64,000 bases of DNA from Candidatus Omnitrophota bacterium (GCA_018883425.1 VFQY01000001.1:432-64431); one strand, 5' to 3'. Counted from the first letter of the stretch, positions 7,443-30,682 are shown. Numbers and translations are program-made. The notes: generated by a model from the letters alone, not told the origin.

Positions 7443-8436
7443 TTCCTTCTCACAGGAAGAAACTCTTCTTTTTACACCGCTGCCTTGCGACGCTCTGCGC
7501 GTGCGGGGCAAAGACAGGGTAAGCGTTCTTCACCGCCTCCTCACTCAGGATATCCGCGCCCTGGCGCCGAACCTCGGAACGGAATCCGCACTCTTGAACG
7601 CCCGGGGCAAAGTGCTCGCCCTCATGAAAGTCGAAGCGTTTGGGGATTCTCTGCGCATTTCTGTCGAACAAGACTTCGGAAAAAAAACCCGTGAGGCACT
7701 TGAAAAACTCATCATCACAGAAGATGTCCAAATCGAAAGCGAGGAGAACCTCGTGCGGATCATCCTTACGGGCCGGCGGGCAAGAACGATACTCGAAACG
7801 GCTTTCTCGCTGTCCTTAGCCCCGCTGCGCTCCGAAAGGTTCTTTGACCTTGCCGAATTTTCGTGGGGCGGGAATGCCGCTGTCCTTGCGGAAATTCGGC
7901 CGGATTTTTTTGAAGTCCTCCTTCCGGCGTCCTCCGCCCCTTCCTTCGAAGAGCGTCTTGTCCAATCGGAACAGGCGGCGCAGCTCAGCTGCCGAGACCT
8001 CGGAGGCTGGGAAGTTTATCGAATCGAACACGGTCTGGCGAAGCTCGGCATCGACATCACGGAGGAAGACACACTTCCGGAAACCGGATTGGACGGAATT
8101 CTAGCGAGCGGCACCAAGGGCTGTTACCCCGGTCAAGAAGTTGTCGCAAGAACGAATACCTACAGCGGTCATGCAAAAAAGTTGCGGGTCCTCATGTTCA
8201 CATCGCAAAGGGTTCCCAACCCGGGCAGCCCGATCTTTTCAGGGGGCGGGGAAATCGGCCGAATTACAAGCTCCTGCTTTTCAGCACGGCAGCAGAAAAC
8301 CATGAGTTTTGCATATCTCAGGAGAGGGCACTTCGAAATCGGCAGCAAAACGTTTTTGACGATCAACGGCCTCGAGTCAGAGACGGCCGTGCTCGACCCG
8401 CGGGATTTGAGAAATCAATCGGGCCGCCAAGGCTGA
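7429..8436 (+). CDS. ygfZ: YgfZ/CAF17-like folate-binding protein (GcvT-domain, Fe-S cluster repair/tRNA modification family)
   Basis: GcvT-like aminomethyltransferase fold signatures, including a conserved C-terminal KGCYPGQE motif. Overlaps the mutY stop by 14 bp. Confidence 0.65.
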   Translation: MTQPDSFSQEETLLFTPLPCDALRVRGKDRVSVLHRLLTQDIRALAPNLGTESALLNARGKVLALMKVEAFGDSLRISVEQDFGKKTREALEKLIITEDVQIESEENLVRIILTGRRARTILETAFSLSLAPLRSERFFDLAEFSWGGNAAVLAEIRPDFFEVLLPASSAPSFEERLVQSEQAAQLSCRDLGGWEVYRIEHGLAKLGIDITEEDTLPETGLDGILASGTKGCYPGQEVVARTNTYSGHAKKLRVLMFTSQRVPNPGSPIFSGGGEIGRITSSCFSARQQKTMSFAYLRRGHFEIGSKTFLTINGLESETAVLDPRDLRNQSGRQG

Positions 8437-10856
8437 TAATCAGGCACGGCTGAACAAAGCGCTCTGAGAATCGCGTCCCGATCCGAGCCCAGGGATGCCT
8501 GCTTAAGAAGGAATTCCATCTTCTTGCGAAAATCAGCGTCTGTGACGGGGGCTTCCCAAATTTGAATCTTGGAGCATTCGGTCGGGATCAACCGCTCGCC
8601 TTTCATCTGGATCTCCTCTTCGAGTTTCTCGCCCGGCCTGAGACCGATGTAGCGGATGGGAATCTGATCCGGCGCGGCGCCCATGAGCTGCATAAGATTA
8701 CGGGCTAAATCGGCAATCCTCAGAGGGTCGCCCATGTCCAGAACGAAAATTCTTTTACCTCCGCCGATCCTGGAGGCCTCCAGGATCAAAAAAACCGCCT
8801 CCGAGATATCCATAAAATAGCGTTTGACGTCCGGATGCGTCACGGTGACCGGACCGCCCCTTTCAATCTGGGATCTAAAAAGCGGGACGACGCTGCCCCG
8901 GCTGTTGAAAACGTTTCCAAAACGGACTGCCATGAACTGGGTTTTTGCGGAGCTCATGGTCTGCAGATAAAGTTCTCCGATCCGCTTCGTGGCCCCCATC
9001 ACGCTCGAGGGACGAATCGCTTTATCCGTGGAAACCATCACGAATTTTTCCGATTCAAACTGGGCCGCCAAATCCGCAGCATTGCGGGTACCGAGCACAT
9101 TATTCAGGATACCCTCGGCAACATGATGCTCGAGAAGCGGCACATGTTTGTAGGCCGCGGCGTGATAGACGATCTCGGGACGATGACTGGAAAAAACTTT
9201 TTCAAGAGCGGCGCGGTCCCGAATATCCCGCAGATAAGGCACCACCCGAACCCCGGAAGCTGCCGATGCCGCAAGCTCCATTTCGATCTCATAAAGATTA
9301 CTTTCTGACTGATCGACCAAAACGATTTCATGCGGATGATGCTCGTGAATTCTGCGGGCAAGCTCCGACCCGATGGATCCGCCGGCCCCAGTAATGAGAA
9401 TTCGCTTCCCGGCCAGAAAGTTTTCAAGACGGCCCGCATCCGCTTTGACCAAACTTCTTCCGAGAAGGTCGGCGACATCGACTTCTTTGAGCTGGAGCGG
9501 CACGATCTGGGGGGGCAGAATGTTTGCCATGCGCGGCATGATGCGGCAGATCAGATCCAAGCGCCTCCCTTCGCTGAGAATGGTCTGGATCGTTTGTCCT
9601 GAGACCTCTGTCAGCGCAATGATCAAGGCCTCGGCTTTTTTGACCCGGGCAGCCTGCGTCAGGTGATTCAACCCCCCGAGAACTTTGATACCGTGAATGC
9701 GGACCCCCGCCTTGAGCGGGTCTTCATCCAGAATGCCGACCGGGCGGTAACCCAGGCCGGGCCTTTTCATCAACTCTCGGATCAAACGCTCGCCGGCGTC
9801 ACCCGCCCCGAGGATAAGCGTATTTTTCGACTTGTGTCCGGTGCGGGGAACGCGGAGACGCTCTGCCGTCACCTTAAAAAAAATACGTGAAAAGCCAAGC
9901 GCCAAAATCAGGATGAGCCAATCCAAAACCAGCGTGGATCGGGGCTGATAACCCGTCTGTGCCAAAAAACTTACGACAGGCAGGAGCAGAGAACCCGCCG
10001 TCACGGACTTGACGATCGCAATCAGTTCGGTCAGTCCCAGATATTGCCAAAGCGTCTGATAAAGTCCGAAAGAAACGTAACAAAACCCCCGGAGGATCAG
10101 CACCCAGGGCAGCATGGCCCAGAAAATGGCGAGCTGATCTTCGGGGACCTGATTTTCGAACCTCAGAAGAAAGGCAGCCGCGTAGGAGGCTGCGGCCAGC
10201 ACCAAATCAAACGCAAGAAAAGAAATTCTGCGCCGGCTTTCGAAGATATATCCCCATTTAAAAAAACCGGAAGTCAGAGCGGGCACGGCTCGGAAAACGA
10301 TTTTCAAATCCTTCAGGGGGTCCCGGCTTCGCACATAATCCAGATCGCACTGTATTTTTGCTTTCAGGATATGTTCCCGGTAAAAAGCTTCAATATCTCC
10401 GGTCTCGGGCAAAATTTTCTCTTCATCGCGCCAAAGAAGCTGCGATGAACCCAAAATGCCGGGCCTGGTTTCAAAAATTTCAGCGCGCTCGCTCTCCGCA
10501 TAAAGATCCATCATGCGGGGCACCTCGGGACGCGGCCCCACCAGGCTCATCTCGCCTAAAACCACATTGAAAAGCTGCGGAAGCTCATCCAGCTTTGACT
10601 TTCTTAGAACACGGCCGATCCTCGTAATCCGCACATCGTTCTTAGCCGTAATTTGTGCGCCGAGGGATTCAGCGTCTTCCACCATCGTACGGAATTTCCA
10701 AATCCAGAACACCTGACCTCTCCGCCCCACTCTCTCTTGCCGAAAAAAAACACTGCCCTCGGCATCAAGCTTGATGAGCAGCGCAGTCAAAATCATCAGC
10801 GGGGACAGAACCGCGAGAGCCGTCAGACTGACCGCAAAATCCAGAACTCTCTTCAT
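8415..10856 (-). CDS. Bifunctional fusion: N-terminal PglC/WbaP-type phosphoglycosyl transferase domain, a polytopic membrane segment, then a C-terminal PglF/WbpM/CapD-type UDP-sugar 4,6-dehydratase domain
   Basis: N-terminus MKRVLDFAVSLTALAVLSPLMILTALLIKLDAEGSVFFRQERVGRRGQVFWIWKFRTM...DELPQLFNVVLGEMSLVGPRP matches bacterial sugar transferases. After four predicted TM helices, RILITGAGGSIGSELARRI...VDQSESNLYEIEMEL...YHAAAYKHVPLLE matches Polysacc_synt_2 (CapD) dehydratases. Confidence 0.8.
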   Translation of the reverse strand: MKRVLDFAVSLTALAVLSPLMILTALLIKLDAEGSVFFRQERVGRRGQVFWIWKFRTMVEDAESLGAQITAKNDVRITRIGRVLRKSKLDELPQLFNVVLGEMSLVGPRPEVPRMMDLYAESERAEIFETRPGILGSSQLLWRDEEKILPETGDIEAFYREHILKAKIQCDLDYVRSRDPLKDLKIVFRAVPALTSGFFKWGYIFESRRRISFLAFDLVLAAASYAAAFLLRFENQVPEDQLAIFWAMLPWVLILRGFCYVSFGLYQTLWQYLGLTELIAIVKSVTAGSLLLPVVSFLAQTGYQPRSTLVLDWLILILALGFSRIFFKVTAERLRVPRTGHKSKNTLILGAGDAGERLIRELMKRPGLGYRPVGILDEDPLKAGVRIHGIKVLGGLNHLTQAARVKKAEALIIALTEVSGQTIQTILSEGRRLDLICRIMPRMANILPPQIVPLQLKEVDVADLLGRSLVKADAGRLENFLAGKRILITGAGGSIGSELARRIHEHHPHEIVLVDQSESNLYEIEMELAASAASGVRVVPYLRDIRDRAALEKVFSSHRPEIVYHAAAYKHVPLLEHHVAEGILNNVLGTRNAADLAAQFESEKFVMVSTDKAIRPSSVMGATKRIGELYLQTMSSAKTQFMAVRFGNVFNSRGSVVPLFRSQIERGGPVTVTHPDVKRYFMDISEAVFLILEASRIGGGKRIFVLDMGDPLRIADLARNLMQLMGAAPDQIPIRYIGLRPGEKLEEEIQMKGERLIPTECSKIQIWEAPVTDADFRKKMEFLLKQASLGSDRDAILRALCSAVPDYQPWRPD

Positions 10857-12088
10857 AACGGCCTCTTGAGGTCTGCGCTCTGCAGGATTTCGAGAACTTT
10901 CTGAGCGACGAAGCCGGCATCTTCATCCGACATCCCGGGATAGATGGGCAGAGAAACAATTCTTTTGAAGCAGTCTGAGGTGTTGGGAAAATCTTCGGGC
11001 TTGAGCCCGAGTTTTTCCTGATAATACGGGTGTTCACTGAGCGGAATAAAATGGACGCTTGTTCCGATACCGGCAGAGCGCATCTTCTCCATGAATTCGT
11101 CGCGGCTGATCGAAAGCTTCTCGATCTCAAGCTTGATCACAAACAAATGCCAGGCATGCGACTCAAAACTGCCGCAAGCCGGTGTACGGAGAAGTTCACA
11201 GCCCCGGAAGGCCTCCAAATAGCTCGCCGCGATCCTCCGCCGCCTCTCGAGGAAGCGTGCGCTTTTTCGAAGCTGCTGAAGACCAATGGCTGCCTGAATA
11301 TCGCTCATATTATATTTTCGGCCGAGCGTCACCACATCGTAGCGCCAAGCGCCTGGATTTTGATAGCGCTTCCAGGCGTCGCGCGTAATCCCATGAAGGG
11401 AAAGCAGCCGCGCCCGCTCGATCACCTCATCATGAGGCGTCACCAGCATTCCTCCTTCACCCGTGGAAAGTGTCTTGGTCGCGTAGAAACTAAAACAAGT
11501 AGCATCGCCGAAAACGCCGACTTTTTTTCCTTCGTAAAGCGTTGGAAAACTGTGCGCGGCATCTTCCACCAGCTTCAAACTGTAGCGCTCTGCGATCCTC
11601 TTGATGGGATTCAGCTCACACGCCTGCCCCGCAAAGTGGACAGGCAAAATAGCCCGGGTCCGGGCGGTGATTTTTTCCTCGATTCTGTCAGCCAGAATGT
11701 TGAAGCTCTCAGGACTGCAATCCACATAAACCGGTTTAGCCTTGCAATAGAGAATGACCTCAGAAGTGGCGACAAAAGTAAAAGGGACCGTAATCACCTC
11801 GTCGCCCTCTTTGATCCCAAGAGCCTCGAGCGCTACGTGCATCGCTGCCGTCCCGCTATTGACGGCCAACGCGTGTTTGACCCCGATCTCGGCCGCAAAG
11901 GCCCGCTCGAAATCCCGGACTTTCGGCCCCGTCGTAATCCAACCGCTGCGGATCGTCTCCGTCACTTCGCGGATTTCTTCTTCTCCATACTCCGGTTTAT
12001 GAAATGGAATCTTAAGCTCTTCCAAAGCTGTCCCCTTCGGCAAGAAATTTTTCAAGGATAGAAACAATGCGCTCCGCTGCGCCGCCAT
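10853..12088 (-). CDS. DegT/DnrJ/EryC1/StrS-family PLP-dependent sugar aminotransferase (ArnB/PglE-like)
   Basis: IPFHKPEYGEEEIREV...GWITTGPKVRDFERAF and the ATKTLSTGEGGMLV lysine region. Track ORF starts at 12166; nearest ATG is at 12088. 4-bp overlap with the downstream fusion gene. Confidence 0.85.
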   Translation of the reverse strand: MAAQRSALFLSLKNFLPKGTALEELKIPFHKPEYGEEEIREVTETIRSGWITTGPKVRDFERAFAAEIGVKHALAVNSGTAAMHVALEALGIKEGDEVITVPFTFVATSEVILYCKAKPVYVDCSPESFNILADRIEEKITARTRAILPVHFAGQACELNPIKRIAERYSLKLVEDAAHSFPTLYEGKKVGVFGDATCFSFYATKTLSTGEGGMLVTPHDEVIERARLLSLHGITRDAWKRYQNPGAWRYDVVTLGRKYNMSDIQAAIGLQQLRKSARFLERRRRIAASYLEAFRGCELLRTPACGSFESHAWHLFVIKLEIEKLSISRDEFMEKMRSAGIGTSVHFIPLSEHPYYQEKLGLKPEDFPNTSDCFKRIVSLPIYPGMSDEDAGFVAQKVLEILQSADLKRPL

Positions 12089-13109
12089 CCCAAAGAGGGA
12101 TAGCTGTCGGAACAGGCCGCGGCTCTTCCAGGATCCTGAAAGCCTGCTCAATGATTTTCTTTTCATGGACAGCGCAGAGCCGGTTTGTTCCCTGAGTCAA
12201 AGTCACCGGCCTTTCGGTATTCTTTCGCAGAGTGATGCAGGGGACAGCCAAAGCTGAAGTTTCCTCCTGCAGTCCTCCCGAGTCCGTCATCACGAAGGCG
12301 GATCCGGCCGTCAGCGAGAGAAAGTCGAGATACCCCAGCGGTTCCGTCAGCGTTACCCCCGACCATTCAGCTCCGAGGACTTCGATGCGCTGAAGTGTCC
12401 GCGGGTGAATGGGAAACACAACGGGGATCCGGGATGCAATTTGACAGACCGCACGGTTCAACTCAAGAAGCGTTGAGGGCCGATCGACATTCTCAGGACG
12501 ATGCAGAGTCAAAAGAGCGTAAGATTTCTCCCGAAAACCGTACCTCTCCCAAGCCCTTCTCGTCAGGGCTTTTTCGAGCCCCCGAATCAGGCTGTCGATC
12601 ATGGTATTGCCGCTATCGAATATCTTAGCCGCGTCAACACCTTCGCGGAGTAAATTTTTCCGCGCACTCGGCTCCGTGGCAAAGAGCAGCGACGAGAGGT
12701 GATCCGTAATAACCCGGTTGATTTCCTCCGGCATAGCTCGATCAAAAGATCTCAAACCTGACTCGATATGAGCAACAGGTACTTGCATTTTTGCCGCCGT
12801 CCAAGCACAGGCGGCTGTCGAATTCACATCGCCGGCAACAATCACAATTCGGGGCTCGGCTTGAGCGCAGACGGGTTCAAAGGCCTTCATGATCTCTGCT
12901 GTTTGAGATGCATGCGAACCCGAGCCGGCACCCAAATTCATATCCGGCTTCTGCAAATCGAGATCCCGAAAAAAAACATCCGACATCTCGGGGGAGTAAT
13001 GCTGTCCCGTATGAACAAGCATATGCGGAAGTTTCCTGCGGCTGATCTCGCGGACTACCGGGGCCATTTTGACAAAGTTGGGACGGGCACCGACAACCGA
13101 TAGGATCAT
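12012..13109 (-). CDS. wecB: UDP-N-acetylglucosamine 2-epimerase (non-hydrolysing)
   Basis: MILSVVGARPNFVKMAPV...HTGQHYS...SGSHASQTAEIM...VAGDVNSTAA...HIESGLRSFDRAMPEEINR. Confidence 0.9.
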   Translation of the reverse strand: MILSVVGARPNFVKMAPVVREISRRKLPHMLVHTGQHYSPEMSDVFFRDLDLQKPDMNLGAGSGSHASQTAEIMKAFEPVCAQAEPRIVIVAGDVNSTAACAWTAAKMQVPVAHIESGLRSFDRAMPEEINRVITDHLSSLLFATEPSARKNLLREGVDAAKIFDSGNTMIDSLIRGLEKALTRRAWERYGFREKSYALLTLHRPENVDRPSTLLELNRAVCQIASRIPVVFPIHPRTLQRIEVLGAEWSGVTLTEPLGYLDFLSLTAGSAFVMTDSGGLQEETSALAVPCITLRKNTERPVTLTQGTNRLCAVHEKKIIEQAFRILEEPRPVPTAIPLWDGGAAERIVSILEKFLAEGDSFGRA

Positions 13110-14622: not shown

Positions 14623-15252
14623 TCATAACTTCTTCGTCATCAAAAGACCCTGGCCGCCGTCGTCGACGGCGCCGCTCAAGACCCACCCGAGCTTTCTATG
14701 AAAAAATAACGCCTGATGATTATTCTTATCCACAGACAGGTGCATCTGTTTTTTTCCCCTGTGCCTAGCCTCTTTCGCAAGCTCACCCATAAGACGCCGG
14801 CCCAAACCTGTGCGCTGAAACTCAGGATCCACCGCAAGCACTAGGACGCCGAAACTGTCTTCGCATATAGAAAACCGAGGTTTCGTATCACGTTTCCCCA
14901 ACAGCCGTATCAAAGGGGCAAGGACCTTCCGTAAAAATCGAGCCTGAACCCATGCGCGGGGACTTACGAGCAAGCGGCAAAAAAGAAATCGTCGATTTTT
15001 TTTGACGAAACCGCTCACTGCGCCTTTAAAAGCGCCTCCCATGGCATATGCGGCTAATTTTCCGTCCGACGAAATTCCCACCGAAAAACATTCATGCGGT
15101 CCCGTCAGAAGCCAACGATAATAACGCCGCACGGCCTCAACGCCCAAGAGAGTCAGAAAGCTGTCCGGAAAAGCCCTCCTATGGAGACGCGCCGCTTTGT
15201 CCGCATCTTCACCACCCAGTCGGAATAAGGAGAGAGAGGTCTGTGGAGTCAT
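14623..15252 (-). CDS. GNAT-family N-acetyltransferase
   Basis: C-terminal LAVDPEFQRTGLGRRLMGELAKEA acetyl-CoA binding motif. ATGA overlap with the upstream CapK-like gene. Confidence 0.7.
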   Translation of the reverse strand: MTPQTSLSLFRLGGEDADKAARLHRRAFPDSFLTLLGVEAVRRYYRWLLTGPHECFSVGISSDGKLAAYAMGGAFKGAVSGFVKKNRRFLFCRLLVSPRAWVQARFLRKVLAPLIRLLGKRDTKPRFSICEDSFGVLVLAVDPEFQRTGLGRRLMGELAKEARHRGKKQMHLSVDKNNHQALFFHRKLGWVLSGAVDDGGQGLLMTKKL

Positions 15253-24308: not shown

Positions 24309-25343
24309 TTACCGAGACCCATGATCCGGTCTTTGGACTGCCTGTCCGCCTTCATTCCAGCTCGGGGGCATATTTTTCAAAATTTCAATGTTCTTGAACG
24401 GCCGGCTCTGACGGACGCCGGTCTTTTGGGCCCAAGCCGCCATTTTTTCAATGCCGCGCTCCAACTCCACTGAGCCCTGATATCCAAACAGGCTTTTGGC
24501 CTTGTGATGTTGCGCAAAAGCATGCTGAACTTCCAGGCGGGGTGGTAAATAGTTCACTTGCGGGTTCTTTCCAAAAACCTGCCCAATCACTCTCGCCAAC
24601 TCCTTGATGCTGTAGGGCTGATCCGCTCCGATATTGATCACCTGGCCTCGAGCCTCCGGTATTCCCGGGCTTTCGGCAATGTGCGGGGCAACGTCATCAA
24701 TGTAACTGAAAGCCCGGGTCTGGGAGCCGTCTCCAAAAACAGTCAGCGGTTTATCCTGCATGATCTGATTCATAAAAATACCGATCACATTCCGGTAACG
24801 GTCACCAAGATTCTGGTGCTCTCCATAAACGTTGTGCGGCCGGAAAATAATGTAAGGCAAACCGAACATCTGATGAGCTGCCCGGAGATCCAGCTCTACG
24901 GCAAACTTGGCAATGCCGTAAGGATCCTCCGGACGGGGATTCGTCTCTTCGCTGACGGGAGGCGGCGCGCTCCCGTAAACAGCAATTGAGGAAGTAAAAA
25001 CAAAACACTTCACCTCATGCCTGACCGAAGCATTGATCAGATTGATGCTTCCAAGAACGTTGTTTGTATAATTAAAATGCCTTATGAAATGCGAAAGTCC
25101 TTCCGCCGCGTACGCTGCAAGGTGATACACGTAATCAAATCTGTACTCTTGAAAAAGCCGCTCAACGAGCTCCCCATCGGTCACGCTGCCCTGGACAAAA
25201 ACAGCTCCAGCAGGAACCTGATCCCGGAATCCTCCGCTCAAGTCGTCCAGAACCACAACCTGATGCCCCTCATGCTCGATACAATGCCTCGCCACATGGG
25301 ATCCGATGAAACCTGCCCCTCCCGTCACCAACGATCTTGCCAC
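24309..25343 (-). CDS. NAD-dependent nucleotide-sugar epimerase/dehydratase (SDR family)
   Basis: VTGGAGFIGSHV Rossmann motif; catalytic S...YGIAK (YxxxK). Confidence 0.85.
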   Translation of the reverse strand: MARSLVTGGAGFIGSHVARHCIEHEGHQVVVLDDLSGGFRDQVPAGAVFVQGSVTDGELVERLFQEYRFDYVYHLAAYAAEGLSHFIRHFNYTNNVLGSINLINASVRHEVKCFVFTSSIAVYGSAPPPVSEETNPRPEDPYGIAKFAVELDLRAAHQMFGLPYIIFRPHNVYGEHQNLGDRYRNVIGIFMNQIMQDKPLTVFGDGSQTRAFSYIDDVAPHIAESPGIPEARGQVINIGADQPYSIKELARVIGQVFGKNPQVNYLPPRLEVQHAFAQHHKAKSLFGYQGSVELERGIEKMAAWAQKTGVRQSRPFKNIEILKNMPPSWNEGGQAVQRPDHGSR

Positions 25344-25361: not shown

Positions 25362-27200
25362 TTAGGCGTCCGCAAAACTTTGTTCAGTCCAGTAACGGTA
25401 AAAAAAATCTTTCTTACTGAGAAGCTCTCCGAAAGCGCCTTGTTCAACAACCCGGCCTTTCTCCAGGACAATAATCTTATCGGCTTTCTTTACCGTAGAA
25501 AACCGATGGGCGATAACGATCAGAGTTTTTTCTGCAGCCGCCTCTTCAATCGCCTCCTGTATTTTCTTTTCGGTAACTGAATCGAGTGCGCTCGTGGCTT
25601 CATCAAAAATCAGAATAGGCGAACCCCGAAGAATGGCTCTCGCAATGGCCAACCGCTGTCTCTCTCCTCCGGATAAACGCACGCCCTTGTCGCCGATAAC
25701 GGTCTCAAGACCCTGAGGCAGGGTTTGAATGAGATCTTCAAGCCTGGATTTCAGGATCACGTTTGCCAAATCTTTCTCAGAAACACTTTTATCGGCTCCA
25801 TAAAGGATGTTGCTTCGTATCGTGTCATTAAAAAGAAGCGTCTCTTGGCTGACGATAGCGAAACATTTTCTCAAAGCATCCAGCGTCAAAGTCCGGATAT
25901 CCCGGCCGTCCATCAGAATACTTCCCGCCTGGGGCTCATACAGCCTGAGGAGCAGATTCACAACGCTTGTTTTTCCGGCGCCTGAACTTCCGACAAGGGC
26001 GGTCATGCGGCCTTTTTCGAACTTCAGATCAATCCCGGCTAAAGCCTTTTTCCCGCCTTTGTAGGTCAACTCGACCCCCCGCAGCTCAAGGGCATGTTGA
26101 AAGTCAACGGCATCAACGGATCCCTGTACTTCACCCCATGCTGACTCTTGGGACAGGATTTCTTCAACCTCGCTCATAGGTCCCATCATTCTGGAAATAT
26201 GGGCCCGGATGTGTCCCAAGGCACCGAAATTGCTCAACGCTCTTCGAAGCGTAAAGAAAAAAATCAGCAATTTTGCAATATCCTGCTCGGCCTTCGTCTG
26301 AAGAAACAGCGCCGCCAGACACATCATGACAAGAAGGGCAAACAGCGCTCCCAGCTCGTAGATCACAGGAACAAGCTCCTGCTTCTTTTCCATGCTGAAT
26401 CGAGCCCTGGCAGATTGAAGACTGCCCGCTTCAAATCTTTTCTCCTCTGCGTCCTCAGTTCTAAAAGCTTTGACCAGCCCAAGATTCATGAGCACATTGG
26501 ATGTCCGGCTGACCCAATCTGCGTTCATCTTAGAGTAAACCTTCGAGCGTTCCTTGATCCTCCGTATCAAACCCGAAATTGTCCTCATAAAGAGCGGCGC
26601 CATGAAAAGCGTCAAAAGCGTCAGGGGCAGCGAAATATAAATCATGACGGCCAGGTAAGGAAAAATCAGCAGACCCGAACAAAGGCTTCGGAATAACGCT
26701 TTCATCGAAACAGCCGTCTCTAGTACCGCCGATGAGATCGTATTGAGGAGGGTGCCCTGGTTTAGCTCATCAAGGCGGCTTTTCGAAGAATGAATAATAC
26801 GGCTGAACAATTTAAGGCGAATGCGGTGGATCGAATCGCAGAGAATGCGGTCCGCAAGGACCAGGGATGCATATTGGAGTAAATTTTTCAACACCGCAGT
26901 AAGAAACACTGCTGACACGAGGAAAATCATCAGCACACTCTGCGGTGTCTTATCTATCGAAAAGCCGAAAAGCACCTTCGCCGCACTGAAAACACGGCTC
27001 TCGAACAGAAAGCCGAAATCGCTCTCGAGAATGCCCTTCAGGAGCGGCATGAGGAGCCCCAAAGTAACCCCCTCGAACAAGACGGCTCCCGCAGAAAGCA
27101 CACAAGCGGCGAAAAACTGATGCCCTCTCAATTCAGCAATTCTGCACAACCGCTGCAGCAAGCGCCATTCAAGAAGCGGCAGCCTGCCTCCTTTATTCAT
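25362..27200 (-). CDS. ABC exporter, fused permease plus ATPase (MsbA/PglK/Wzk-like; candidate lipid-linked oligosaccharide flippase)
   Basis: N-terminal 6-TM domain. Walker A GSSGAGKTS, signature LSGGERQRLAIARA, Walker B ILIFDEATSALD. Confidence 0.85.
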   Translation of the reverse strand: MNKGGRLPLLEWRLLQRLCRIAELRGHQFFAACVLSAGAVLFEGVTLGLLMPLLKGILESDFGFLFESRVFSAAKVLFGFSIDKTPQSVLMIFLVSAVFLTAVLKNLLQYASLVLADRILCDSIHRIRLKLFSRIIHSSKSRLDELNQGTLLNTISSAVLETAVSMKALFRSLCSGLLIFPYLAVMIYISLPLTLLTLFMAPLFMRTISGLIRRIKERSKVYSKMNADWVSRTSNVLMNLGLVKAFRTEDAEEKRFEAGSLQSARARFSMEKKQELVPVIYELGALFALLVMMCLAALFLQTKAEQDIAKLLIFFFTLRRALSNFGALGHIRAHISRMMGPMSEVEEILSQESAWGEVQGSVDAVDFQHALELRGVELTYKGGKKALAGIDLKFEKGRMTALVGSSGAGKTSVVNLLLRLYEPQAGSILMDGRDIRTLTLDALRKCFAIVSQETLLFNDTIRSNILYGADKSVSEKDLANVILKSRLEDLIQTLPQGLETVIGDKGVRLSGGERQRLAIARAILRGSPILIFDEATSALDSVTEKKIQEAIEEAAAEKTLIVIAHRFSTVKKADKIIVLEKGRVVEQGAFGELLSKKDFFYRYWTEQSFADA

Positions 27201-27316: not shown

Positions 27317-27523
27317 CTATTTGCTCATCCGGCTCATGAGCCAGGCATCCAGGACATCTTTCTTGAACCGCCATTGACCGCCGATTTTTGTCGCAGGGAT
27401 CTCTTGTTTTTTGAGGAGTCGGTAGATTGTGACCAGATGAAACCCTAAATACTTCGCAGCTTCCTTTGGAGTCATGATTTGAGTTCTCTCGGGACGTTTC
27501 GGTGTATTCTTAGATTCTTCCAT
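27317..27523 (-). CDS. Small HTH DNA-binding protein, excisionase-family (HTH_17/MerR-like). Copy A, first gene of the main glycan operon
   Basis: MTPKEAAKYLGFHLVTIYRLLKKQEIPATKIGGQWRFKKDVLDAWL matches the excisionase-family HTH. Its paralog is at 30425-30682. Confidence 0.75.
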   Translation of the reverse strand: MEESKNTPKRPERTQIMTPKEAAKYLGFHLVTIYRLLKKQEIPATKIGGQWRFKKDVLDAWLMSRMSK

Positions 27524-27577
27524 GAATGGACCCCTTGATTTACTGTTTTTGCTTGTTTTAGTTATAATCTATTTCAA

Positions 27578-27606
27578 ATATTAATGTCATAATTATAAAT
27601 AGTCAA
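27578..27606 (-). promoter_or_regulatory. Putative sigma70 promoter of HTH copy A (minus strand TTGACT-N17-TAATAT)
   Basis: Read on the minus strand: TTGACT at 27606-27601, 17-nt spacer, TAATAT at 27583-27578. About 55 nt upstream of ATG 27523 with an AAGGGG RBS. Confidence 0.4.
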
Positions 27607-27609
27607 CTC

Positions 27610-27633: not shown

Positions 27634-27681
27634 AAACGCCTTATTTCCTTTTCCTGCCAACATTTCCTAATAATCAATAAA

Positions 27682-27789: not shown

Positions 27790-28353
27790 ATGAAACTTCG
27801 TTCTGCCTTACTCGCTGTCATGCTTTGCATGACGCTCACGACCCCCCGCCTCCTGGCATCTGAGGATGTCTGGGATCTTGCTGAATCCGAGCAATATGGT
27901 AAGAAAAGCGCCGGCATGGTCGGCCGCGGTCTGATCAATGCCGCAACAAGCCCCGTTGACCTTGTCGTTCAGACTGTAGAAAGCACTCAGGAAGGACCTC
28001 CTTTTTTTGGAACCCTCACGGGGCTCTCTTCAGGCCTTGGCTGCACGGCGCTGCGTGCCTCTTCAGGCATTATGGATGTGGCGACTTTCTGGGTCCCTGG
28101 ATTTAACGGGTTCAAGGTGTCCCGCTCCTACTCGAACTGTCTGGAAGCCGAATACACGAAAGCCCGCTACACACCGGTTCGTGAACCGCAAACCCAAGTG
28201 ATTGAGCAGCCTCAGGTCGTGGTTGTTCAAGAGCCTGCCAAACCCGTTGTGGTGCAGGCTCCGAACCCTATGGACTATGTGAAGAAAGGCGATGCGCCTG
28301 ATCCGATGGCGTACGTTAAGAAGGGCTCCAACGAGAATTCTTACGTAAAATAG
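27790..28353 (+). CDS. Secreted hypothetical protein with signal peptide and C-terminal Pro/Val/Gln-rich region ending in YVKKG repeats
   Basis: MKLRSALLAVMLCMTLTTPRLLASEDV signal peptide. PQTQVIEQPQVVVVQEPAKPVVVQAPNPMDYVKKGDAPDPMAYVKKGSNENSYVK. RBS AAAAGGAGTG. Track ORF 27721 includes an upstream in-frame extension. Confidence 0.6.
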   Translation: MKLRSALLAVMLCMTLTTPRLLASEDVWDLAESEQYGKKSAGMVGRGLINAATSPVDLVVQTVESTQEGPPFFGTLTGLSSGLGCTALRASSGIMDVATFWVPGFNGFKVSRSYSNCLEAEYTKARYTPVREPQTQVIEQPQVVVVQEPAKPVVVQAPNPMDYVKKGDAPDPMAYVKKGSNENSYVK

Positions 28354-28427: not shown

Positions 28428-29207
28428 TTAAACTTTAACGATATACGCCCTATCCGGAAATTTAGGAACAATCGGTTTTTCAGCTTTATCCAGAAAGAAT
28501 TCATCTACAGCCTTTCGGGCTCCGGGCCATGCGGGGTCATCGTATTCATCAAAAACCATCACCGCTCCAGGATTCATTCTCGGATAAAAAAACTCCAGGC
28601 AAATCTGATAGGATTCGTACAAATCACAATCGAGAAAGACAAAGGCAAACCGCTCACTCGGCAAATGCCGGAGCGATTCCTCAAAAAAACCGGGGATCAC
28701 CTGGACGTCCTTCTCCAAGCCGAAGGCCCTGAGTTTACTCCTCACAAGGGCGATCGAGGTATTGCCGAATCCGCCGATGCTTTTCCTTGAGGACTTCTCT
28801 CCGGATTGATCAATTGCACTCATCACTGAATCATCAAAACCCGCAAAAGAATCAAACGCATAAATTCTTTTTGAGGGCATGATTTTTTTTGCCTGATAGG
28901 CAATAGGTATCAAAGAAGCGCCCTGGTAAACTCCGCATTCGGCGGCTGCTCCAGGCACGTTTCCCACGCGCCTCAGTTTTTCTAGAATGTGCGCCATTCT
29001 CCCCGGTTGCCCTGAAGGAAAAGGGACGTCGATTCCGCAAAGCTCACCGAACCAGCAAGGCCAATCGTGAACATCCTGAACACCCAAACAACGCAGAATC
29101 AATCGGCCCGCCCGCCAAAAAAAAGGGGCGAGCCCTGATTTACGGTAAATATATCGAACCTTGGGAGGGTTCATCTGGGGGGCACTATCGGGTTTTAAAG
29201 AAATCAT
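28428..29207 (-). CDS. TylF/MycF/NovP-family SAM-dependent sugar O-methyltransferase
   Basis: ECGVYQGASL, DSFAGF, FLDCDLYESY and VFDEYDDPAWPG motifs characteristic of macrocin-O-methyltransferase-like enzymes. Confidence 0.75.
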   Translation of the reverse strand: MISLKPDSAPQMNPPKVRYIYRKSGLAPFFWRAGRLILRCLGVQDVHDWPCWFGELCGIDVPFPSGQPGRMAHILEKLRRVGNVPGAAAECGVYQGASLIPIAYQAKKIMPSKRIYAFDSFAGFDDSVMSAIDQSGEKSSRKSIGGFGNTSIALVRSKLRAFGLEKDVQVIPGFFEESLRHLPSERFAFVFLDCDLYESYQICLEFFYPRMNPGAVMVFDEYDDPAWPGARKAVDEFFLDKAEKPIVPKFPDRAYIVKV

Positions 29208-30315
29208 CTAGCACGGAGCAGACATATTCCTGATCCGTTCTGCTAAGCTCAGGGTAGATGGGGAGAGCTAAGGTTTCACGGCTCGCTTTCTCGCTTTCCG
29301 GAAAGTCTCCCTCGCGATAGCCCAGAAACGCAAAACACTCCTGTAGATGAAGGGGCCTAGGGTAATACACTTCGGTGCCCACGCCGCGTTCGGCCAGATA
29401 GGCCATAAGATCATCGCGCCGCTGAACCCGAATCACATACTGGTTGTAAACATGCCTGCCGGCTTTCTTCCTCGGCGGGATAACGCGCCCAGAATCAGCC
29501 AGACCGCTCTGCTTGAAAAATTGGTCGTAGAACGCTGCATTGCTTTGACGCTGCCGGGTCCAGGCGTCTAAATATTTCAGTTTCACAATCAAAACGGCCG
29601 CTTGCAGCGCATCAAGCCTGAAGTTGCCGCCGACGGTTTTATAGTAATACTTTTTTTCGGATCCGTGATTGCGCAGAACTTTGATTTTCTTGATGATCGA
29701 TTCATCATGACTCACGACCATTCCGCCGTCACCGAAGCAGCCCAAATTCTTTGAAGGAAAAAACGACAAGCATCCATAGAGCCCCATCGATCCGGCGCGG
29801 CGCCCTTCATCCTCAGCTCCAATAGCCTGAGCAGCGTCTTCGATCACAGAAATTTTGAAGCGTTCGGCCAACTCCAGCACAGGATCCATGTCCGCGGTCT
29901 GCCCGTAAAGATGAACGGGCATCAGCGCCTTGGTTTTCGGGGTGATCCGGCTCTCGAGCTGCAAAGTATTCCAATTGTAGGTTTCCGGATCAATGTCGGC
30001 AAAAACCGGTCTTGCCCCTAAACGCACAATGGATCCTGCAGTCGCAAAAAACGTGTAGGGCGTGGTCAAGACTTCATCCCCGGGACCGATCCCTTCACTC
30101 ATGAGCGCCGCCAGCAGAGCATCGGTTCCCGATGACACTCCGCATCCGTAAGCCACGCCGCAATAGCGCGCTAAAGCGGATTCACACTCCTCAACACGAG
30201 CACCGAGAATGAATTGCTGCTGCTCAAAAAGCTCTGCCATCACCCGGTCGATCTCGGGTTTGATGGTTTGGTATTGAGCCTTGAGATCTAGAAGAGGAAC
30301 CTTCATTAAATTCAC
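29185..30315 (-). CDS. DegT/DnrJ/EryC1-family PLP-dependent sugar aminotransferase (second copy, WecE/PseC-like)
   Basis: LLDLKAQYQ, GVSSGTDAL, and FFPSKNLGCFGDGG lysine region. Confidence 0.85.
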   Translation of the reverse strand: MNLMKVPLLDLKAQYQTIKPEIDRVMAELFEQQQFILGARVEECESALARYCGVAYGCGVSSGTDALLAALMSEGIGPGDEVLTTPYTFFATAGSIVRLGARPVFADIDPETYNWNTLQLESRITPKTKALMPVHLYGQTADMDPVLELAERFKISVIEDAAQAIGAEDEGRRAGSMGLYGCLSFFPSKNLGCFGDGGMVVSHDESIIKKIKVLRNHGSEKKYYYKTVGGNFRLDALQAAVLIVKLKYLDAWTRQRQSNAAFYDQFFKQSGLADSGRVIPPRKKAGRHVYNQYVIRVQRRDDLMAYLAERGVGTEVYYPRPLHLQECFAFLGYREGDFPESEKASRETLALPIYPELSRTDQEYVCSVLDDFFKTR

Positions 30316-30424
30316 TCAGTTTGAAAGGTTAGCGGTTTAATAGGAGCGGCTATTCTACTCGGAAACTGCGGGAAAGTCTTGCGGAGGAATGTTACGGCTG
30401 GTAATCCGTTCAACCCAGTCTGCT

Positions 30425-30682
30425 TTACTGATTCATCCGGTTCATGAGCCAGGCATCCAGGACATCTTTCTTAAAACGCCATTGTCCGCCGATTTTCGTA
30501 GCGGGAATCTCCTGCTTCTTGAGAAGACGGTAGATGGTCACGAGGTGAAACCCGAGATATTTCGCAGCTTCCTTAGGCGTCATGATCTGGGTGCGCTGCC
30601 GCTGCTGCTGAGGCTGCTGTGAATCAGATTTATTCGTTTCCATAGTCTCTCGCCTGTTTAGAGTGGCTGGTTTTTTCCCCAA
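30425..30682 (-). CDS. Small HTH DNA-binding protein, excisionase-family (HTH_17). Copy B, first gene of the HTH-DegT-TylF sub-operon
   Basis: 50-aa core identical to copy A (TQIMTPKEAAKYLGFHLVTIYRLLKKQEIPATKIGGQWRFKKDVLDAWLM); distinct Gln-rich N-terminus. Confidence 0.75.
   Translation of the reverse strand: MGKKPATLNRRETMETNKSDSQQPQQQRQRTQIMTPKEAAKYLGFHLVTIYRLLKKQEIPATKIGGQWRFKKDVLDAWLMNRMNQ

What the first reader, a model, noticed from the sequence alone, without database searches (positions are those of the whole stretch)
8415..30682. About 22-kb co-directional glycan assembly locus with PglK/Wzk-type flippase and Wzy_C-family ligase but no Wzx/Wzz: candidate O-antigen or protein O-glycosylation system
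Twenty-plus genes lie on the minus strand with minimal spacing and at least six ATGA stop/start overlaps, implying tightly coupled translation. The gene set is: initiating PGT fused to a dehydratase, two DegT aminotransferases, WecB, five GT4 and one GT2, a hexapeptide acetyltransferase, CapK-like ligase plus GNAT, a TylF O-methyltransferase, an SDR epimerase, an MsbA/PglK-like fused ABC exporter, and a Wzy_C/O-antigen-ligase-family protein. This is the architecture of pathways that build a complete oligosaccharide on Und-PP and flip it with an ABC transporter (Campylobacter PglK, Helicobacter Wzk), then transfer it en bloc via WaaL to lipid A-core or via PglL-like O-OTase to proteins. A heavily decorated (N-acyl, O-methyl, amino, deoxy) glycan is predicted.
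Basis: partly seen in the sequence, partly recalled or inferred. Interest (0 to 1): 0.7.

Follow-up and report, generated by a model that had tools for sequence, protein, structure and literature searches.

The report
Surface-sugar gene island in Omnitrophota
This is a real but fairly ordinary 22-kb gene island that builds a decorated surface sugar chain in an uncultured Omnitrophota bacterium, using an ABC pump instead of the usual Wzx flippase; what the chain is finally attached to cannot be settled from sequence.

Summary
Window 8415-30682 is a compact glycan-assembly island bounded by housekeeping genes. It has 19 minus-strand genes, one plus-strand gene and eight 4-bp start/stop overlaps. 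The listed gene content is confirmed, with corrections:
- There are four clear GT4 genes, not five.
- One weak GT2-like gene is present.
- One 414-aa protein without a Pfam family models as a GT-B fold.

No Wzx, Wzz, Wzc or Wza gene is present in the 64 kb. The only multi-pass membrane proteins are the PGT-dehydratase fusion, the ABC exporter and the Wzy_C protein.

Related loci support the ABC protein as the glycan flippase. All six homologues whose surroundings I examined (37-60% identity) lie in sugar loci. Its membrane domain is only remotely MsbA-like.

The Wzy_C protein belongs to a small subfamily. In 13 of 18 informative loci it sits beside an ABC exporter, either MsbA-type or Wzm/Wzt. 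Most of these loci are in Chloroflexota, which are generally held to lack LPS. This favours an en bloc ligase or O-oligosaccharyltransferase (about 0.5) over a Wzy polymerase (about 0.3). It does not prove it, because two related loci also carry Wzc-like genes.

I class it as a new member of a known kind, of moderate interest.

The parts
8415..10856 (-). Fusion protein (813 aa). It comprises an N-terminal small monotopic phosphoglycosyl transferase (res 1-195), four TM segments, a CoA_binding_3 domain, and a Polysacc_synt_2 PglF/WbpM/CapD-like UDP-GlcNAc 4,6-dehydratase.
   Evidence: Pfam Bac_transf 193 bits and Polysacc_synt_2 352 bits. TIGR03025 315 bits, above its cutoff of 295.6. TM segments. 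The same fusion occurs in L001 (73% id) and L008 (62%).
10853..12166 (-). DegT-family sugar aminotransferase 1, PglE/PseC/ArnB-like. The true start is probably TTG near 12025-12043.
   Evidence: PF01041 431 bits. PseC 385 bits, below its cutoff of 423.5. Start candidates.
12012..13109 (-). WecB, a non-hydrolysing UDP-GlcNAc 2-epimerase that makes UDP-ManNAc.
   Evidence: TIGR00236 328.5 bits, above its cutoff of 210.
13106..14335 (-). GT4 glycosyltransferase, WcaI-like.
   Evidence: Glycos_transf_1 and Glyco_trans_4_4. NF007640 190 bits, below its cutoff.
14623..15252 (-). GNAT N-acetyl/acyltransferase.
   Evidence: PF00583 58 bits.
15249..16721 (-). CapK/PaaK-like adenylate-forming ligase. 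The probable start is ATG 16658, giving an ATGA overlap.
   Evidence: AMP-binding at threshold. DVU1553-family 122 bits. PaaK structures 47-77 bits. Orthologues carry PF27533 CapK_C.
16655..17746 (-). GT4 glycosyltransferase.
   Evidence: Glycos_transf_1 89.7 bits.
17743..18288 (-). Hexapeptide-repeat acetyltransferase, WcaF-like.
   Evidence: PF00132 44.7 bits. NF007797 65.5 bits, below its cutoff.
18272..19642 (-). GT4 glycosyltransferase. The probable start is ATG 19447, giving an ATGA overlap and a 391-aa product.
   Evidence: Glycos_transf_1 90.4 bits. Start candidates.
19444..20799 (-). Wzy_C-family membrane enzyme of subfamily 'A1' (450 aa from ATG 20796). It is the candidate en bloc glycan ligase/O-OTase, with Wzy polymerase as the alternative.
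   Evidence: PF04932 67.8 bits. 100% identical to an NCBI 'O-antigen ligase family protein [Candidatus Omnitrophica bacterium]'. AF2 pLDDT 82.9, about 12 TM helices plus a periplasmic insert. Top PDB fold is WaaL 7tpg. The profile hits WaaL at 32 bits and an oligosaccharyltransferase, 9rmk, at 30 bits.
20796..21971 (-). GT2-like glycosyltransferase (weak). The probable start is ATG 21914.
   Evidence: No Pfam hit. GlfT1 N-terminus 27.6 bits. Orthologues in L001 and L003 carry PF00535.
21907..22974 (-). GT4 glycosyltransferase, matched only over the C-terminal half.
   Evidence: Glycos_transf_1 41.2 bits.
22971..24215 (-). Soluble 414-aa GT-B-fold protein from a widespread family with no Pfam model. 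It is a putative glycosyl- or phosphoglycosyl-transferase, or an epimerase-like enzyme.
   Evidence: No Pfam hit. More than 247 homologues at 40-60% id, all 'hypothetical'. AF2 pLDDT 83.8. Foldseek matches to SenB, UDP-GlcNAc 2-epimerases, TagF, MurG and MshA.
24309..25343 (-). GalE-like SDR sugar epimerase/dehydratase.
   Evidence: PF01370 179 bits. GalE 168 bits, below its cutoff.
25362..27200 (-). Fused TMD-NBD ABC half-transporter (type IV exporter). It is the candidate flippase for the Und-PP-linked glycan.
   Evidence: ABC_membrane + ABC_tran. HepA-family 448 bits, MsbA 396, PglK 238, all below cutoffs. TMD alone: MsbA 33-35 bits, Sav1866 30, PglK 24.5. The six homologues whose surroundings I examined all lie in glycan loci.
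27317..27523 (-). HTH_17 (excisionase-family) small DNA-binding protein 'a', the first gene of the long operon.
   Evidence: TIGR01764 64 bits. 96% aa identity to L001 and L008 counterparts.
27578..27606 (-). Sigma-70-like promoter (TTGACT-17-TAATAT) inside a conserved operator-like palindrome upstream of HTH 'a'.
   Evidence: The consensus scan as a whole is not enriched over shuffles; the support is conservation across six upstream regions.
27790..28353 (+). Secreted TIGR04073-like protein ('exosortase system-associated' family) on the opposite strand. It is a conserved companion of the island; a role in the pathway is unproven.
   Evidence: TIGR04073 46.8 bits against a cutoff of 50. Signal-peptide-like N-terminus. 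It aligns almost without change to the L001 and L008 copies over the mature region (76% to L008 by BLAST over the longest ORF). It is also present at the same site in L033.
28428..29207 (-). TylF-family sugar O-methyltransferase.
   Evidence: PF05711 92.5 bits.
29185..30315 (-). DegT-family sugar aminotransferase 2.
   Evidence: PF01041 382.6 bits.
30425..30682 (-). HTH_17 small DNA-binding protein 'b', a paralogue of 'a' and the first gene of the short operon.
   Evidence: PF12728 65.4 bits. DNA alignment with gene 'a'.
30703..30731 (-). Sigma-70-like promoter (TTGACA-17-TAGGAT) upstream of HTH 'b'.

Best explanation
The island is a lipid-carrier (undecaprenyl-phosphate) pathway for a decorated surface hetero-oligosaccharide in a diderm Omnitrophota bacterium.

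Inferred steps:
1. The dehydratase half of the fusion protein and DegT-1 convert UDP-GlcNAc into a UDP-4-amino-4,6-dideoxy-HexNAc. This is N-acylated by the hexapeptide transferase, or by the GNAT together with the CapK-like adenylating enzyme.
2. The small PGT half of the same protein puts this bacillosamine-like sugar-1-phosphate on Und-P.
3. Four GT4 enzymes, a GT2-like enzyme and a GT-B-fold protein add about six more residues at the cytoplasmic face. Donors come from WecB (ManNAc), the SDR and DegT-2. The glycan is O-methylated by TylF and O-acetylated.
4. A homodimer of the ABC half-transporter flips the finished Und-PP-oligosaccharide, taking the place of Wzx.
5. The single Wzy_C-family enzyme transfers it en bloc to an acceptor on the periplasmic face. 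The acceptor may be lipid A-core or a secreted protein and is not determined.

Two paralogous HTH_17 proteins behind near-identical promoters probably control the two operons.

Shown here: gene content, order, coupling, boundaries, absence of Wzx/Wzz/Wza in 64 kb, and conservation of context. Inferred: every enzymatic step, the flipping, and the ligase role.
For: Gene content and boundaries.

Membrane proteins: only three ORFs in the window have four or more TM segments, namely PGT-PglF, ABC and Wzy_C. Seeds for Wzx, MOP, Wza and Wzc find nothing in the window.

The organism is diderm: an Omp85 gene lies at 53677-55041.

The ABC protein is tied to glycan loci:
- It holds the same position in L001 (60% id) and L008 (46% id).
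- The next full-length homologues I looked up (37-40% id) all lie among sugar genes.
- One of these, L033, is a different cassette at the same chromosomal site in another Omnitrophota MAG.
- The TMD scores only 33-35 bits to MsbA, so it is not a housekeeping MsbA orthologue.

The Wzy_C protein:
- Its fold and conserved Arg/Arg/His positions align with WaaL and an O-OTase.
- Its subfamily is small: 168 clusters at E<=1e-30 against 23,982 at E<=1e-3.
- In 18 distinct loci with at least 11 kb of context, it sits with an MsbA-type ABC in 3 and with Wzm/Wzt in 10. Wzm/Wzt systems export completed chains and need a ligase, not a polymerase. This matches the S-layer slg clusters with the Wzy_C O-OTase WsaB (PMC2943079).
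- Similar cassettes in a classical Wza/Wzc/MOP locus (Pedosphaera, L035) and in L036, L037 and L032 use a non-A1 Wzy_C (A1 HMM 0-24 bits).

There is precedent for an ABC flippase working with WaaL: H. pylori Wzk/WaaL (PMC2841628, listed; its title and abstract were seen, not the full text).
Against: - Pfam Wzy_C does not separate ligases from polymerases, and no solved Wzy was available for comparison.
- The gene is translationally coupled to glycosyltransferase genes on both sides and diverges at their rate (56% and 41% id against 38-56% for the GTs). This is the usual picture for Wzy polymerases. Many WaaL genes lie instead in core-oligosaccharide loci (background knowledge).
- Two A1-type loci (L017 Levilinea and L019) also carry Wzc/PCP-like genes.
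- Five of 18 loci show no exporter within view.
- Distant Bacteroidota relatives (A1 HMM 100-121 bits) sit with Wzx.
- The ABC protein misses every curated NCBIfam cutoff: HepA 448 of 725, MsbA 396 of 602, PglK 238 of 1000.
- Only 64 kb of the genome is visible, so Wzx, Wzz, WaaL or Wza could lie elsewhere.
Confidence: 0.5

Rival explanations
1. Repeat-unit polymerase pathway. The same Und-PP-linked unit is flipped by the ABC half-transporter, standing in for Wzx. The Wzy_C protein then polymerises it as a Wzy into an O-antigen, capsule or exopolysaccharide. Chain-length control, ligation and outer-membrane export genes would lie elsewhere in the genome.
For: - The Wzy_C gene sits in the middle of the glycosyltransferase genes with ATGA overlaps on both sides. 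It co-varies with them and keeps the same GT neighbours across phyla, which fits an enzyme specific for one repeat unit.
- Wzc/PCP-like genes occur in A1-type loci L017 and L019.
- An MsbA-like ABC homologue (38% id) coexists with a Wzc-like PCP and another Wzy_C in L032.
- A near-identical sub-cassette in Pedosphaera lies beside Wza, Wzc and a 13-TM MOP-like protein.
- Wzy_C-domain proteins such as ExoQ are regarded as polymerases (background knowledge).
Against: - No Wzz, Wzc or Wza in 64 kb.
- Ten of 18 A1-type loci carry Wzm/Wzt, a system that exports finished chains and needs no polymerase.
- The Wzy_C proteins in the clearly Wzx/Wzc/Wza-type loci belong to other lineages (A1 HMM 0-24 bits).
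Confidence: 0.3
2. The ABC protein is not part of the pathway. It would be a generic exporter or the cell's lipid A flippase that happens to lie here. The glycan would be flipped by an unlinked Wzx, or by another protein.
For: The best curated matches are to HepA and MsbA families, and to ABCB1/MsbA structures driven by the ATPase domain. No curated cutoff is reached.
Against: - The gene holds the same position in L001 and L008 and diverges in step with the locus (60% and 46%).
- Four of four further homologues examined are in sugar loci, including in Peribacteraceae. This group belongs to the CPR bacteria, which are generally held to lack lipid A (background knowledge).
- The TMD is only 33-35 bits to MsbA.
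- It is the first enzyme-coding gene of the long operon, 18 bp upstream of the next gene.
Confidence: 0.1
3. The island is a chance juxtaposition of two or three unrelated sugar operons making different products. It would not be one assembly line.
For: There are at least two transcription units with their own promoters and HTH genes. There is also a 287-bp gap with a terminator-like hairpin at 14474-14454.
Against: - The same units recur together and in the same order in L001 and L008.
- Both promoters share one conserved operator-like element.
- There is only one initiating PGT, one exporter and one Wzy_C protein.
Confidence: 0.07

Closest known systems
Helicobacter pylori LPS O-antigen pathway (WecA, Wzk ABC flippase, WaaL ligase)
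   Same: The glycan is built completely on Und-PP in the cytoplasm. It is flipped by a fused PglK/MsbA-class ABC half-transporter instead of Wzx. No Wzy/Wzz step is used, and transfer by a Wzy_C-family ligase is proposed (PMC2841628, seen as title and abstract).
   Different: The H. pylori genes are scattered, whereas here they form one island. Initiation here is by a small PglC-type PGT fused to a PglF-like dehydratase, not WecA. The ABC protein is not a close relative of PglK (238 bits against a cutoff of 1000; TMD 24.5 bits). The acceptor is unknown.
Campylobacter jejuni pgl N-glycosylation locus (PglF/E/D/C initiation, PglK flippase, PglB)
   Same: It uses the same initiation logic: a 4,6-dehydratase, an aminotransferase, an acyltransferase and a small PGT making a bacillosamine-type reducing-end sugar. 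It has about six further GTs, an ABC half-transporter flippase, and tight operon organisation.
   Different: There is no PglB/STT3 oligosaccharyltransferase. The last enzyme here is a Wzy_C protein. PglF and PglC are fused here. Extra decoration genes are present (TylF, CapK-like, GNAT, second DegT).
S-layer glycan (slg) clusters of Geobacillus stearothermophilus and Paenibacillus alvei (Wzm/Wzt + WsaB/WsfB)
   Same: An ABC-exported Und-PP-glycan is handed to a Wzy_C-domain O-oligosaccharyltransferase encoded in the same cluster, and start/stop codons overlap (PMC2943079). The Chloroflexota relatives L005-L007 and L014-L017 have this gene make-up.
   Different: The window uses an MsbA-type half-transporter, not Wzm/Wzt. 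No S-layer or other acceptor gene is identified. I did not compare sequences with WsaB itself, because no sequence was available to the tools.
Wzx/Wzy-dependent capsule/EPS loci (for example Staphylococcus aureus cap5/8, or succinoglycan with ExoQ)
   Same: The enzyme repertoire is similar: a CapD-like dehydratase, a small PGT, WecB, an SDR, a hexapeptide O-acetyltransferase, GT4s, and a Wzy_C-type membrane protein amid the GTs. The Pedosphaera locus L035 shows the same sub-cassette beside Wza, Wzc and a MOP-like protein.
   Different: The window has no Wzx, PCP or OPX genes. The Wzy_C proteins of L035, L036, L037 and L032 belong to other lineages than the window's.
HepA-family ABC exporters of cyanobacterial heterocyst envelope polysaccharide
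   Same: This is the best NCBIfam match of the ABC protein (448 bits). It is an MsbA-like half-transporter encoded in a polysaccharide island.
   Different: The score is below the family cutoff of 725. The HepA substrate and mechanism are themselves not defined.

Membership tests
PglK/Wzk-type lipid-linked-oligosaccharide ABC flippase | Fused TMD-NBD type IV ABC exporter architecture | tested here: met
   ABC_membrane (res 86-303) plus ABC_tran (388-537), 612 aa.
PglK/Wzk-type lipid-linked-oligosaccharide ABC flippase | Sequence membership in the curated PglK family | tested here: not met
   NF050066 238 bits against a cutoff of 1000. TMD to PglK 5c73 is only 24.5 bits.
PglK/Wzk-type lipid-linked-oligosaccharide ABC flippase | Encoded with, and conserved alongside, a PGT and glycosyltransferases in a locus lacking Wzx | tested here: met
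   Window, L001 and L008. Further homologues lie in glycan loci. No Wzx in 64 kb.
PglK/Wzk-type lipid-linked-oligosaccharide ABC flippase | ATP-dependent flipping of an Und-PP-oligosaccharide | not testable with these tools
   Needs complementation of pglK, wzk or wzx mutants, or an in vitro flipping assay.
MsbA (lipid A-core flippase) | Score above the curated equivalog cutoff and a conserved TMD | tested here: not met
   TIGR02203 396 bits against 602, and NF008381 312 against 867. TMD alone is 33-35 bits.
HepA-family ABC transporter | Score above the curated cutoff | tested here: not met
   NF045513 448 bits against 725.
WaaL O-antigen ligase | Wzy_C domain, about 12 TM helices and a periplasmic insert between late helices | tested here: met
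   PF04932 67.8 bits. AF2 helices with a periplasmic segment at about 265-345. Foldseek top hit 7tpg, E 1.4e-7, TM 0.57-0.62.
WaaL O-antigen ligase | Conserved Arg residues and a His aligned with those of WaaL (Und-PP binding and catalysis) | tested here: met
   Invariant R216, R292 and H343 in 20 sequences. They align to NGTR, VGVR and AHN of 7tpg. The proposed roles of these residue types are from PMC12800693. The same residues would be expected in O-OTases, so this does not discriminate.
WaaL O-antigen ligase | Lipid A-core as acceptor, in an organism that makes LPS | tested here: inconclusive
   The window's organism is diderm (Omp85), and a preprint reports LPS genes in Omnitrophota. Most members of this subfamily are in Anaerolineae/Chloroflexota, and one is in Patescibacteria. 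These groups are generally held to lack lipid A (background knowledge, not tested here).
PglL/PilO/PglS-type protein O-oligosaccharyltransferase | Wzy_C core with catalytic His | tested here: met
   The profile hits 9rmk 'Oligosaccharyltransferase' at 29.7 bits over the same core.
PglL/PilO/PglS-type protein O-oligosaccharyltransferase | Accessory PglL_A or Wzy_C_2 domains, or a large C-terminal periplasmic domain | tested here: not met
   Only PF04932 was reported at E<=1e-3. The protein ends after the last TM helix.
PglL/PilO/PglS-type protein O-oligosaccharyltransferase | A glycosylated acceptor protein | not testable with these tools
   Needs glycoproteomics. The conserved TIGR04073-like secreted protein (27790-28353) is only a candidate.
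Wzy repeat-unit polymerase (Wzx/Wzy-dependent pathway) | Co-occurrence with a Wzx flippase and a Wzz/Wzc co-polymerase | tested here: not met
   None in the 64-kb window. Wzc-like genes are present in 2 of 18 related loci. Wzx is present only in distant Bacteroidota relatives and at the edge of L005. The rest of the genome was not seen.
Small monotopic phosphoglycosyl transferase (PglC-like) | Bac_transf catalytic domain preceded by a single hydrophobic helix, about 200 aa | tested here: met
   Res 2-193 match PF02397 at 193 bits. Hydrophobic segment at res 4-38. A stand-alone 210-aa version occurs in L003.
PglF/WbpM/CapD-type membrane UDP-GlcNAc 4,6-dehydratase | TM segments + CoA_binding_3 + Polysacc_synt_2 | tested here: met
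   Res 211-329 are four TM segments. CoA_binding_3 covers 263-437 and Polysacc_synt_2 covers 486-766, 352 bits.

The most novel reading that the evidence does not exclude
The small 'A1' Wzy_C subfamily defines an uncharacterised, phylum-spanning en bloc glycosylation module: GT2-like, Wzy_C, GT4, hexapeptide transferase, GT4 and CapK-like ligase. The module plugs into whichever ABC exporter the host has, either an MsbA-type half-transporter or Wzm/Wzt. It would attach the glycan to proteins rather than to lipid A, which would explain its abundance in Chloroflexota, generally held to lack LPS. In Omnitrophota, the nearly invariant secreted TIGR04073-like protein encoded inside the island would be an acceptor or partner.
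Probability: 0.2. Interest if true: 0.6.

Novelty: new member of a known kind. Interest (0 to 1): 0.35.

Why it matters
Omnitrophota are uncultured, often ultra-small bacteria whose cell surfaces are unknown. This island predicts a heavily decorated surface oligosaccharide: amino, deoxy, N-acyl and O-methyl. It occupies a chromosomal site where different cassettes are swapped between relatives, so it is a likely determinant of phage, host or predator interactions.

More generally, the comparison gives a concrete and testable handle on a common annotation problem, telling ligases from polymerases within Wzy_C. One small subfamily travels with ABC exporters of two unrelated types. If that subfamily proves to be an O-oligosaccharyltransferase, it would add a compact enzyme (450 aa, no accessory domain) to the glycoengineering toolbox.

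As it stands, the locus is built from known families following known logic.

Tried and rejected
- Rfam on the whole window found nothing.
- RNA folding of the 287-bp gap at 14336-14622 gave a z-score of +0.97, so there is no special structure.
- The promoter and terminator consensus scans were not enriched over shuffles. I kept only the two promoters that are supported by cross-genome conservation.
- tblastn of the Wzy_C protein against plasmids found no match. I had hoped to compare it with pSymB ExoQ.
- I could not retrieve the PNAS 2021 PGT-network paper to ask whether PGT-PglF fusions are already catalogued.
- Literature searches linking Chloroflexi, Omnitrophota and O-antigen ligase gave nothing specific to this cassette.
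- NCBIfam gave no informative subfamily for the Wzy_C protein. The only hit was IctB at 44.5 bits, far below its cutoff.
- I first took the Pedosphaera locus (Wza/Wzc beside the same sub-cassette) as strong evidence for a polymerase. Its Wzy_C then turned out not to be orthologous.
- An exosortase/PEP-CTERM system was considered because of the TIGR04073 hit. No exosortase and no TIGR03097-type ligase hit were found, so I did not pursue it.
- A mobile-element origin was considered. The two 'excisionase-family' HTH genes have no integrase or transposase partner in the window, and they are chromosomal fixtures in four genomes.

Full report
**1. What is there**

ORF listing and composition show an almost unbroken run of minus-strand genes from 8415 to 30682. 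Pfam and NCBIfam scans give the following, in the direction of transcription.

Short operon:
- HTH_17 'b' (30682-30425)
- DegT-2 (30315-29185)
- TylF methyltransferase (29207-28428)

On the opposite strand:
- a secreted TIGR04073-like protein (27790-28353)

Long run:
- HTH_17 'a' (27523-27317)
- ABC half-transporter (27200-25362)
- GalE-like SDR
- 414-aa protein with no Pfam family
- GT4
- GT2-like protein
- Wzy_C
- GT4
- hexapeptide acetyltransferase
- GT4
- CapK/PaaK-like ligase
- GNAT
- a 287-bp gap
- WcaI-like GT4
- WecB
- DegT-1
- an 813-aa fusion of a small phosphoglycosyl transferase with a PglF/WbpM/CapD-type membrane dehydratase (10856-8415)

Eight junctions are 4-bp start/stop overlaps. 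Five or six are ATGA, one is TTGA and one is GTGA.

The flanks are housekeeping genes: MutY and YgfZ on one side; ComF-like, SpoU, GDPD, RsmB and HflX on the other.

G+C dips to 0.48-0.51 at 24-32 kb, against 0.54-0.57 in the flanks.

**2. Corrections to the observation**

- I count nineteen minus-strand genes, not twenty-plus. One gene is on the plus strand.
- Four genes, not five, reach GT4 thresholds.
- The 414-aa protein is soluble. It belongs to a large unnamed family. Its AlphaFold model (pLDDT 83.8) is a GT-B fold resembling SenB, UDP-GlcNAc 2-epimerases, TagF, MurG and MshA.
- The 'GT2' is supported only weakly in the window itself. Support is better for its orthologues.
They are paralogues, about 85% identical in DNA over the HTH part. 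Each lies behind a sigma-70-like promoter.
- The promoters sit in an element, TAAATAGCAA-N3-TTGACTATTTA, that is conserved upstream of the corresponding genes in three other genomes.
- The island therefore has at least two operons with a shared control element. There may be a third unit after the 287-bp gap. That gap shows no Rfam match or unusual structure.

**3. Organism**

The Wzy_C protein is 100% identical to an NCBI entry from a Candidatus Omnitrophica MAG.

An Omp85 gene in the window indicates a diderm envelope. A recent preprint reports O-antigen ligase, LPS exporter and heptosyltransferase genes in Omnitrophota.

**4. No Wzx, Wzz or Wza**

Family scans of essentially all sizeable ORFs in the window found none.

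Iterative searches seeded with Wzx, MOP, Wza and Wzc proteins from related loci hit nothing in the window.

Only three ORFs of at least 120 aa in the whole window have four or more hydrophobic segments: the PGT fusion, the ABC protein and the Wzy_C protein. The rest of the genome is unseen.

**5. The ABC protein**

It is a type IV exporter. Its best curated matches are HepA-family (448 bits), MsbA (396) and, further down, PglK (238). All are below their cutoffs.

Whole-protein PDB matches are dominated by the ATPase domain. With the membrane domain alone, only MsbA (33-35 bits), Sav1866 (30) and PglK (24.5) are found. It is therefore a divergent lineage whose nearest solved relatives are lipid flippases. 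It is not an MsbA orthologue.

Context is the stronger argument:
- Its closest homologues (60%, 53% and 46% identity) are the genes at the same position in sister islands.
- The next full-length homologues I looked up (37-40% identity) all lie among sugar-nucleotide and glycosyltransferase genes.
- One of these, L033, is another Omnitrophota MAG. The same chromosomal site (M17 peptidase, RsmB, SpoU, ComF-like, opposite-strand small gene, HTH_17) carries a different cassette led by a NusG paralogue, an SDR and the ABC gene.

This is the signature of a replaceable surface-glycan island whose constant parts include the exporter. I take the flippase role as likely (about 0.85) but inferred.

**6. 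The Wzy_C protein**

The AlphaFold model (pLDDT 82.9) has about 12 TM helices and a periplasmic insert. Its best solved match is the WaaL ligase, followed by the SEDS proteins FtsW and RodA.

A profile of 20 relatives matches WaaL (32 bits) and an O-oligosaccharyltransferase (30 bits) equally. Invariant R216, R292 and H343 fall on the WaaL NGTR, VGVR and AHN positions. The roles of such residues are discussed in PMC12800693.

None of this separates ligase, O-OTase and polymerase.

**7. Comparative test**

A scan of species-representative genomes found 23 loci. Most are Anaerolineae/Chloroflexota, including Levilinea saccharolytica. Others are Thermodesulfobacteriota, Bryobacteraceae, Bacteroidota and one Patescibacteria contig.

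I mapped ORFs in these loci and in metagenomic loci against the window's proteins. A core recurs almost everywhere: GT2-like, Wzy_C, GT4, hexapeptide transferase (optional), GT4, CapK-like.

Scoring with an HMM of the subfamily ('A1') separates three groups:
- True members score above 360 bits when full-length.
- Bacteroidota relatives score 100-121 bits.
- Unrelated Wzy_C proteins score 0-24 bits.

Among 18 distinct A1 loci with at least 11 kb of context, the exporter is:
- an MsbA-type half-transporter in 3 (window, L001, L008);
- Wzm/Wzt with a Wzt_C domain in 10;
- not in view in 5.

Wzm/Wzt systems export finished chains and need a ligase, not a polymerase. S-layer slg clusters pair Wzm/Wzt with the Wzy_C O-OTase WsaB in this way (PMC2943079).

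The 414-aa/SDR/GT4/GT2 sub-cassette also occurs in Pedosphaera parvula next to Wza, Wzc and a 13-TM MOP-like protein. That is a classical Wzx/Wzy arrangement, but the Wzy_C there is not an A1 protein (score 0). The same holds for L036, L037 and L032.

So the lineage of the Wzy_C protein tracks the export mode. That is what one expects if A1 proteins are en bloc transferases.

The subfamily is small. It has 168 clusters at E<=1e-30, out of 23,982 Wzy_C-like hits among 1.84 billion representatives.

**8. Why this is not proof**

- Two A1 loci with Wzm/Wzt (Levilinea L017 and L019) also carry Wzc-like genes.
- L005 has a short Wzx-like gene at its edge.
- Distant Bacteroidota relatives sit with Wzx.
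- The gene's position amid glycosyltransferase genes, and its GT-like rate of divergence, are typical of polymerases.

I put the ligase/O-OTase reading at about 0.5 and the polymerase reading at about 0.3.

As to the acceptor, the prevalence of A1 in phyla generally held to lack lipid A argues that lipid A-core cannot be the acceptor for the whole family. In a diderm Omnitrophota either lipid A-core or protein remains possible.

**9. Mechanism proposed**

All enzymatic steps are inferred from family membership. The PglF-like domain and DegT-1 make a UDP-4-amino-4,6-dideoxy-HexNAc. An acyltransferase caps it; this is the hexapeptide enzyme, or the GNAT fed by the CapK-like adenylating enzyme. 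The fused PGT loads it on Und-P.

About six transferases extend it, using ManNAc from WecB and products of the SDR and DegT-2. TylF methylates it. The ABC dimer flips it. The Wzy_C enzyme transfers it.

The identity pattern against sister islands is typical of surface-antigen loci under diversifying selection, with conserved ends and a variable centre:
- regulators 96%
- DegT and PGT 62-81%
- ABC 46-60%
- Wzy_C and GTs 38-56%

**10. Verdict**

The locus is a new member of a known kind of system, closest in logic to H. pylori Wzk/WaaL and to the slg clusters. Interest is moderate.

The most useful by-products are:
- the link between the A1 subfamily and ABC exporters;
- the unnamed GT-B family;
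- the strongly conserved HTH_17, operator and TIGR04073-like set that marks this island site in Omnitrophota.

Noticed in passing
window 27317-27680 and 30425-30793 (minus strand); also L001:820-1183 and 3190-3548, L008:2670-3027, L033:5630-5993: Two paralogous 'excisionase-family' HTH_17 genes each open an operon. Their proteins are 96% identical to counterparts in genomes whose neighbouring enzymes are only 40-60% identical. All lie behind a conserved element, TAAATAGCAA-N3-TTGACTATTTA, with 7-bp inverted arms around the -35 box. This is likely an autoregulated operator. No integrase is nearby.
   Followed up: partly
window 27790-28353 (+): A secreted TIGR04073-like protein (46.8 bits, just under the cutoff of 50) is encoded against the grain of the island. 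Its mature region aligns almost without change to the L001 and L008 copies, so it is far more conserved than the surrounding enzymes. It is also present at the same site in L033, where the sugar genes differ. Its function is unknown. It could be a glycan acceptor or an envelope partner.
   Followed up: partly
window 22971-24215 (-): A 414-aa soluble protein from a large, well-conserved family (more than 247 homologues at 40-60% identity, in Verrucomicrobiota, Gemmatimonadota, Acidobacteriota and Omnitrophota). It has no Pfam model and only 'hypothetical' names. The model is a GT-B fold with a long C-terminal helical extension. The family always sits between an SDR and a GT4 in glycan cassettes.
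   Followed up: partly
L033 (GCA_041666865.1, Omnitrophota MAG), whole locus: The same chromosomal site as in the window (M17 peptidase, RsmB, SpoU, ComF-like, HTH_17) carries a different glycan cassette. It has a NusG paralogue (possible operon-specific antiterminator), an SDR, an ABC half-transporter, a CMP-sugar synthetase and GT2s. This points to a hot spot for swapping surface-glycan cassettes.
   Followed up: partly
L005:1779-3443, L015:1277-2362, L012:17207-18295 and 18338-19666: Multi-pass membrane proteins (9-12 TM segments) with no Pfam family lie in Chloroflexota relatives of the island. Those of L005 and L015 lie between wzm and wzt; the two in L012 lie at the locus edge, where no wzm/wzt was seen. 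The L012 (17207-18295) and L015 proteins are homologous to each other. Their role is unknown.
   Followed up: partly
window 36444-39003 (-): A run of five ORFs (103-271 aa) lies between HflX and a ROK-family gene. The four that were scanned have no Pfam match; the fifth (36698-37039) was not scanned.
   Followed up: no
window 52056-55041 (-): A 598-aa ORF with no Pfam match lies immediately downstream of, and overlaps by annotation, an Omp85-superfamily gene (53677-55041). It may be an outer-membrane assembly or translocation pair.
   Followed up: no
window 1376-2728 (+): A 450-aa ORF with no Pfam match overlaps the malate/lactate dehydrogenase gene on the other strand by about 255 bp. It may be a wrongly extended or spurious ORF.
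   Followed up: no
window 14336-14622: A 287-bp non-coding gap inside the long gene run has a terminator-like hairpin at 14474-14454. It has no Rfam match and no unusual folding energy. It is possibly an internal operon boundary.
   Followed up: yes
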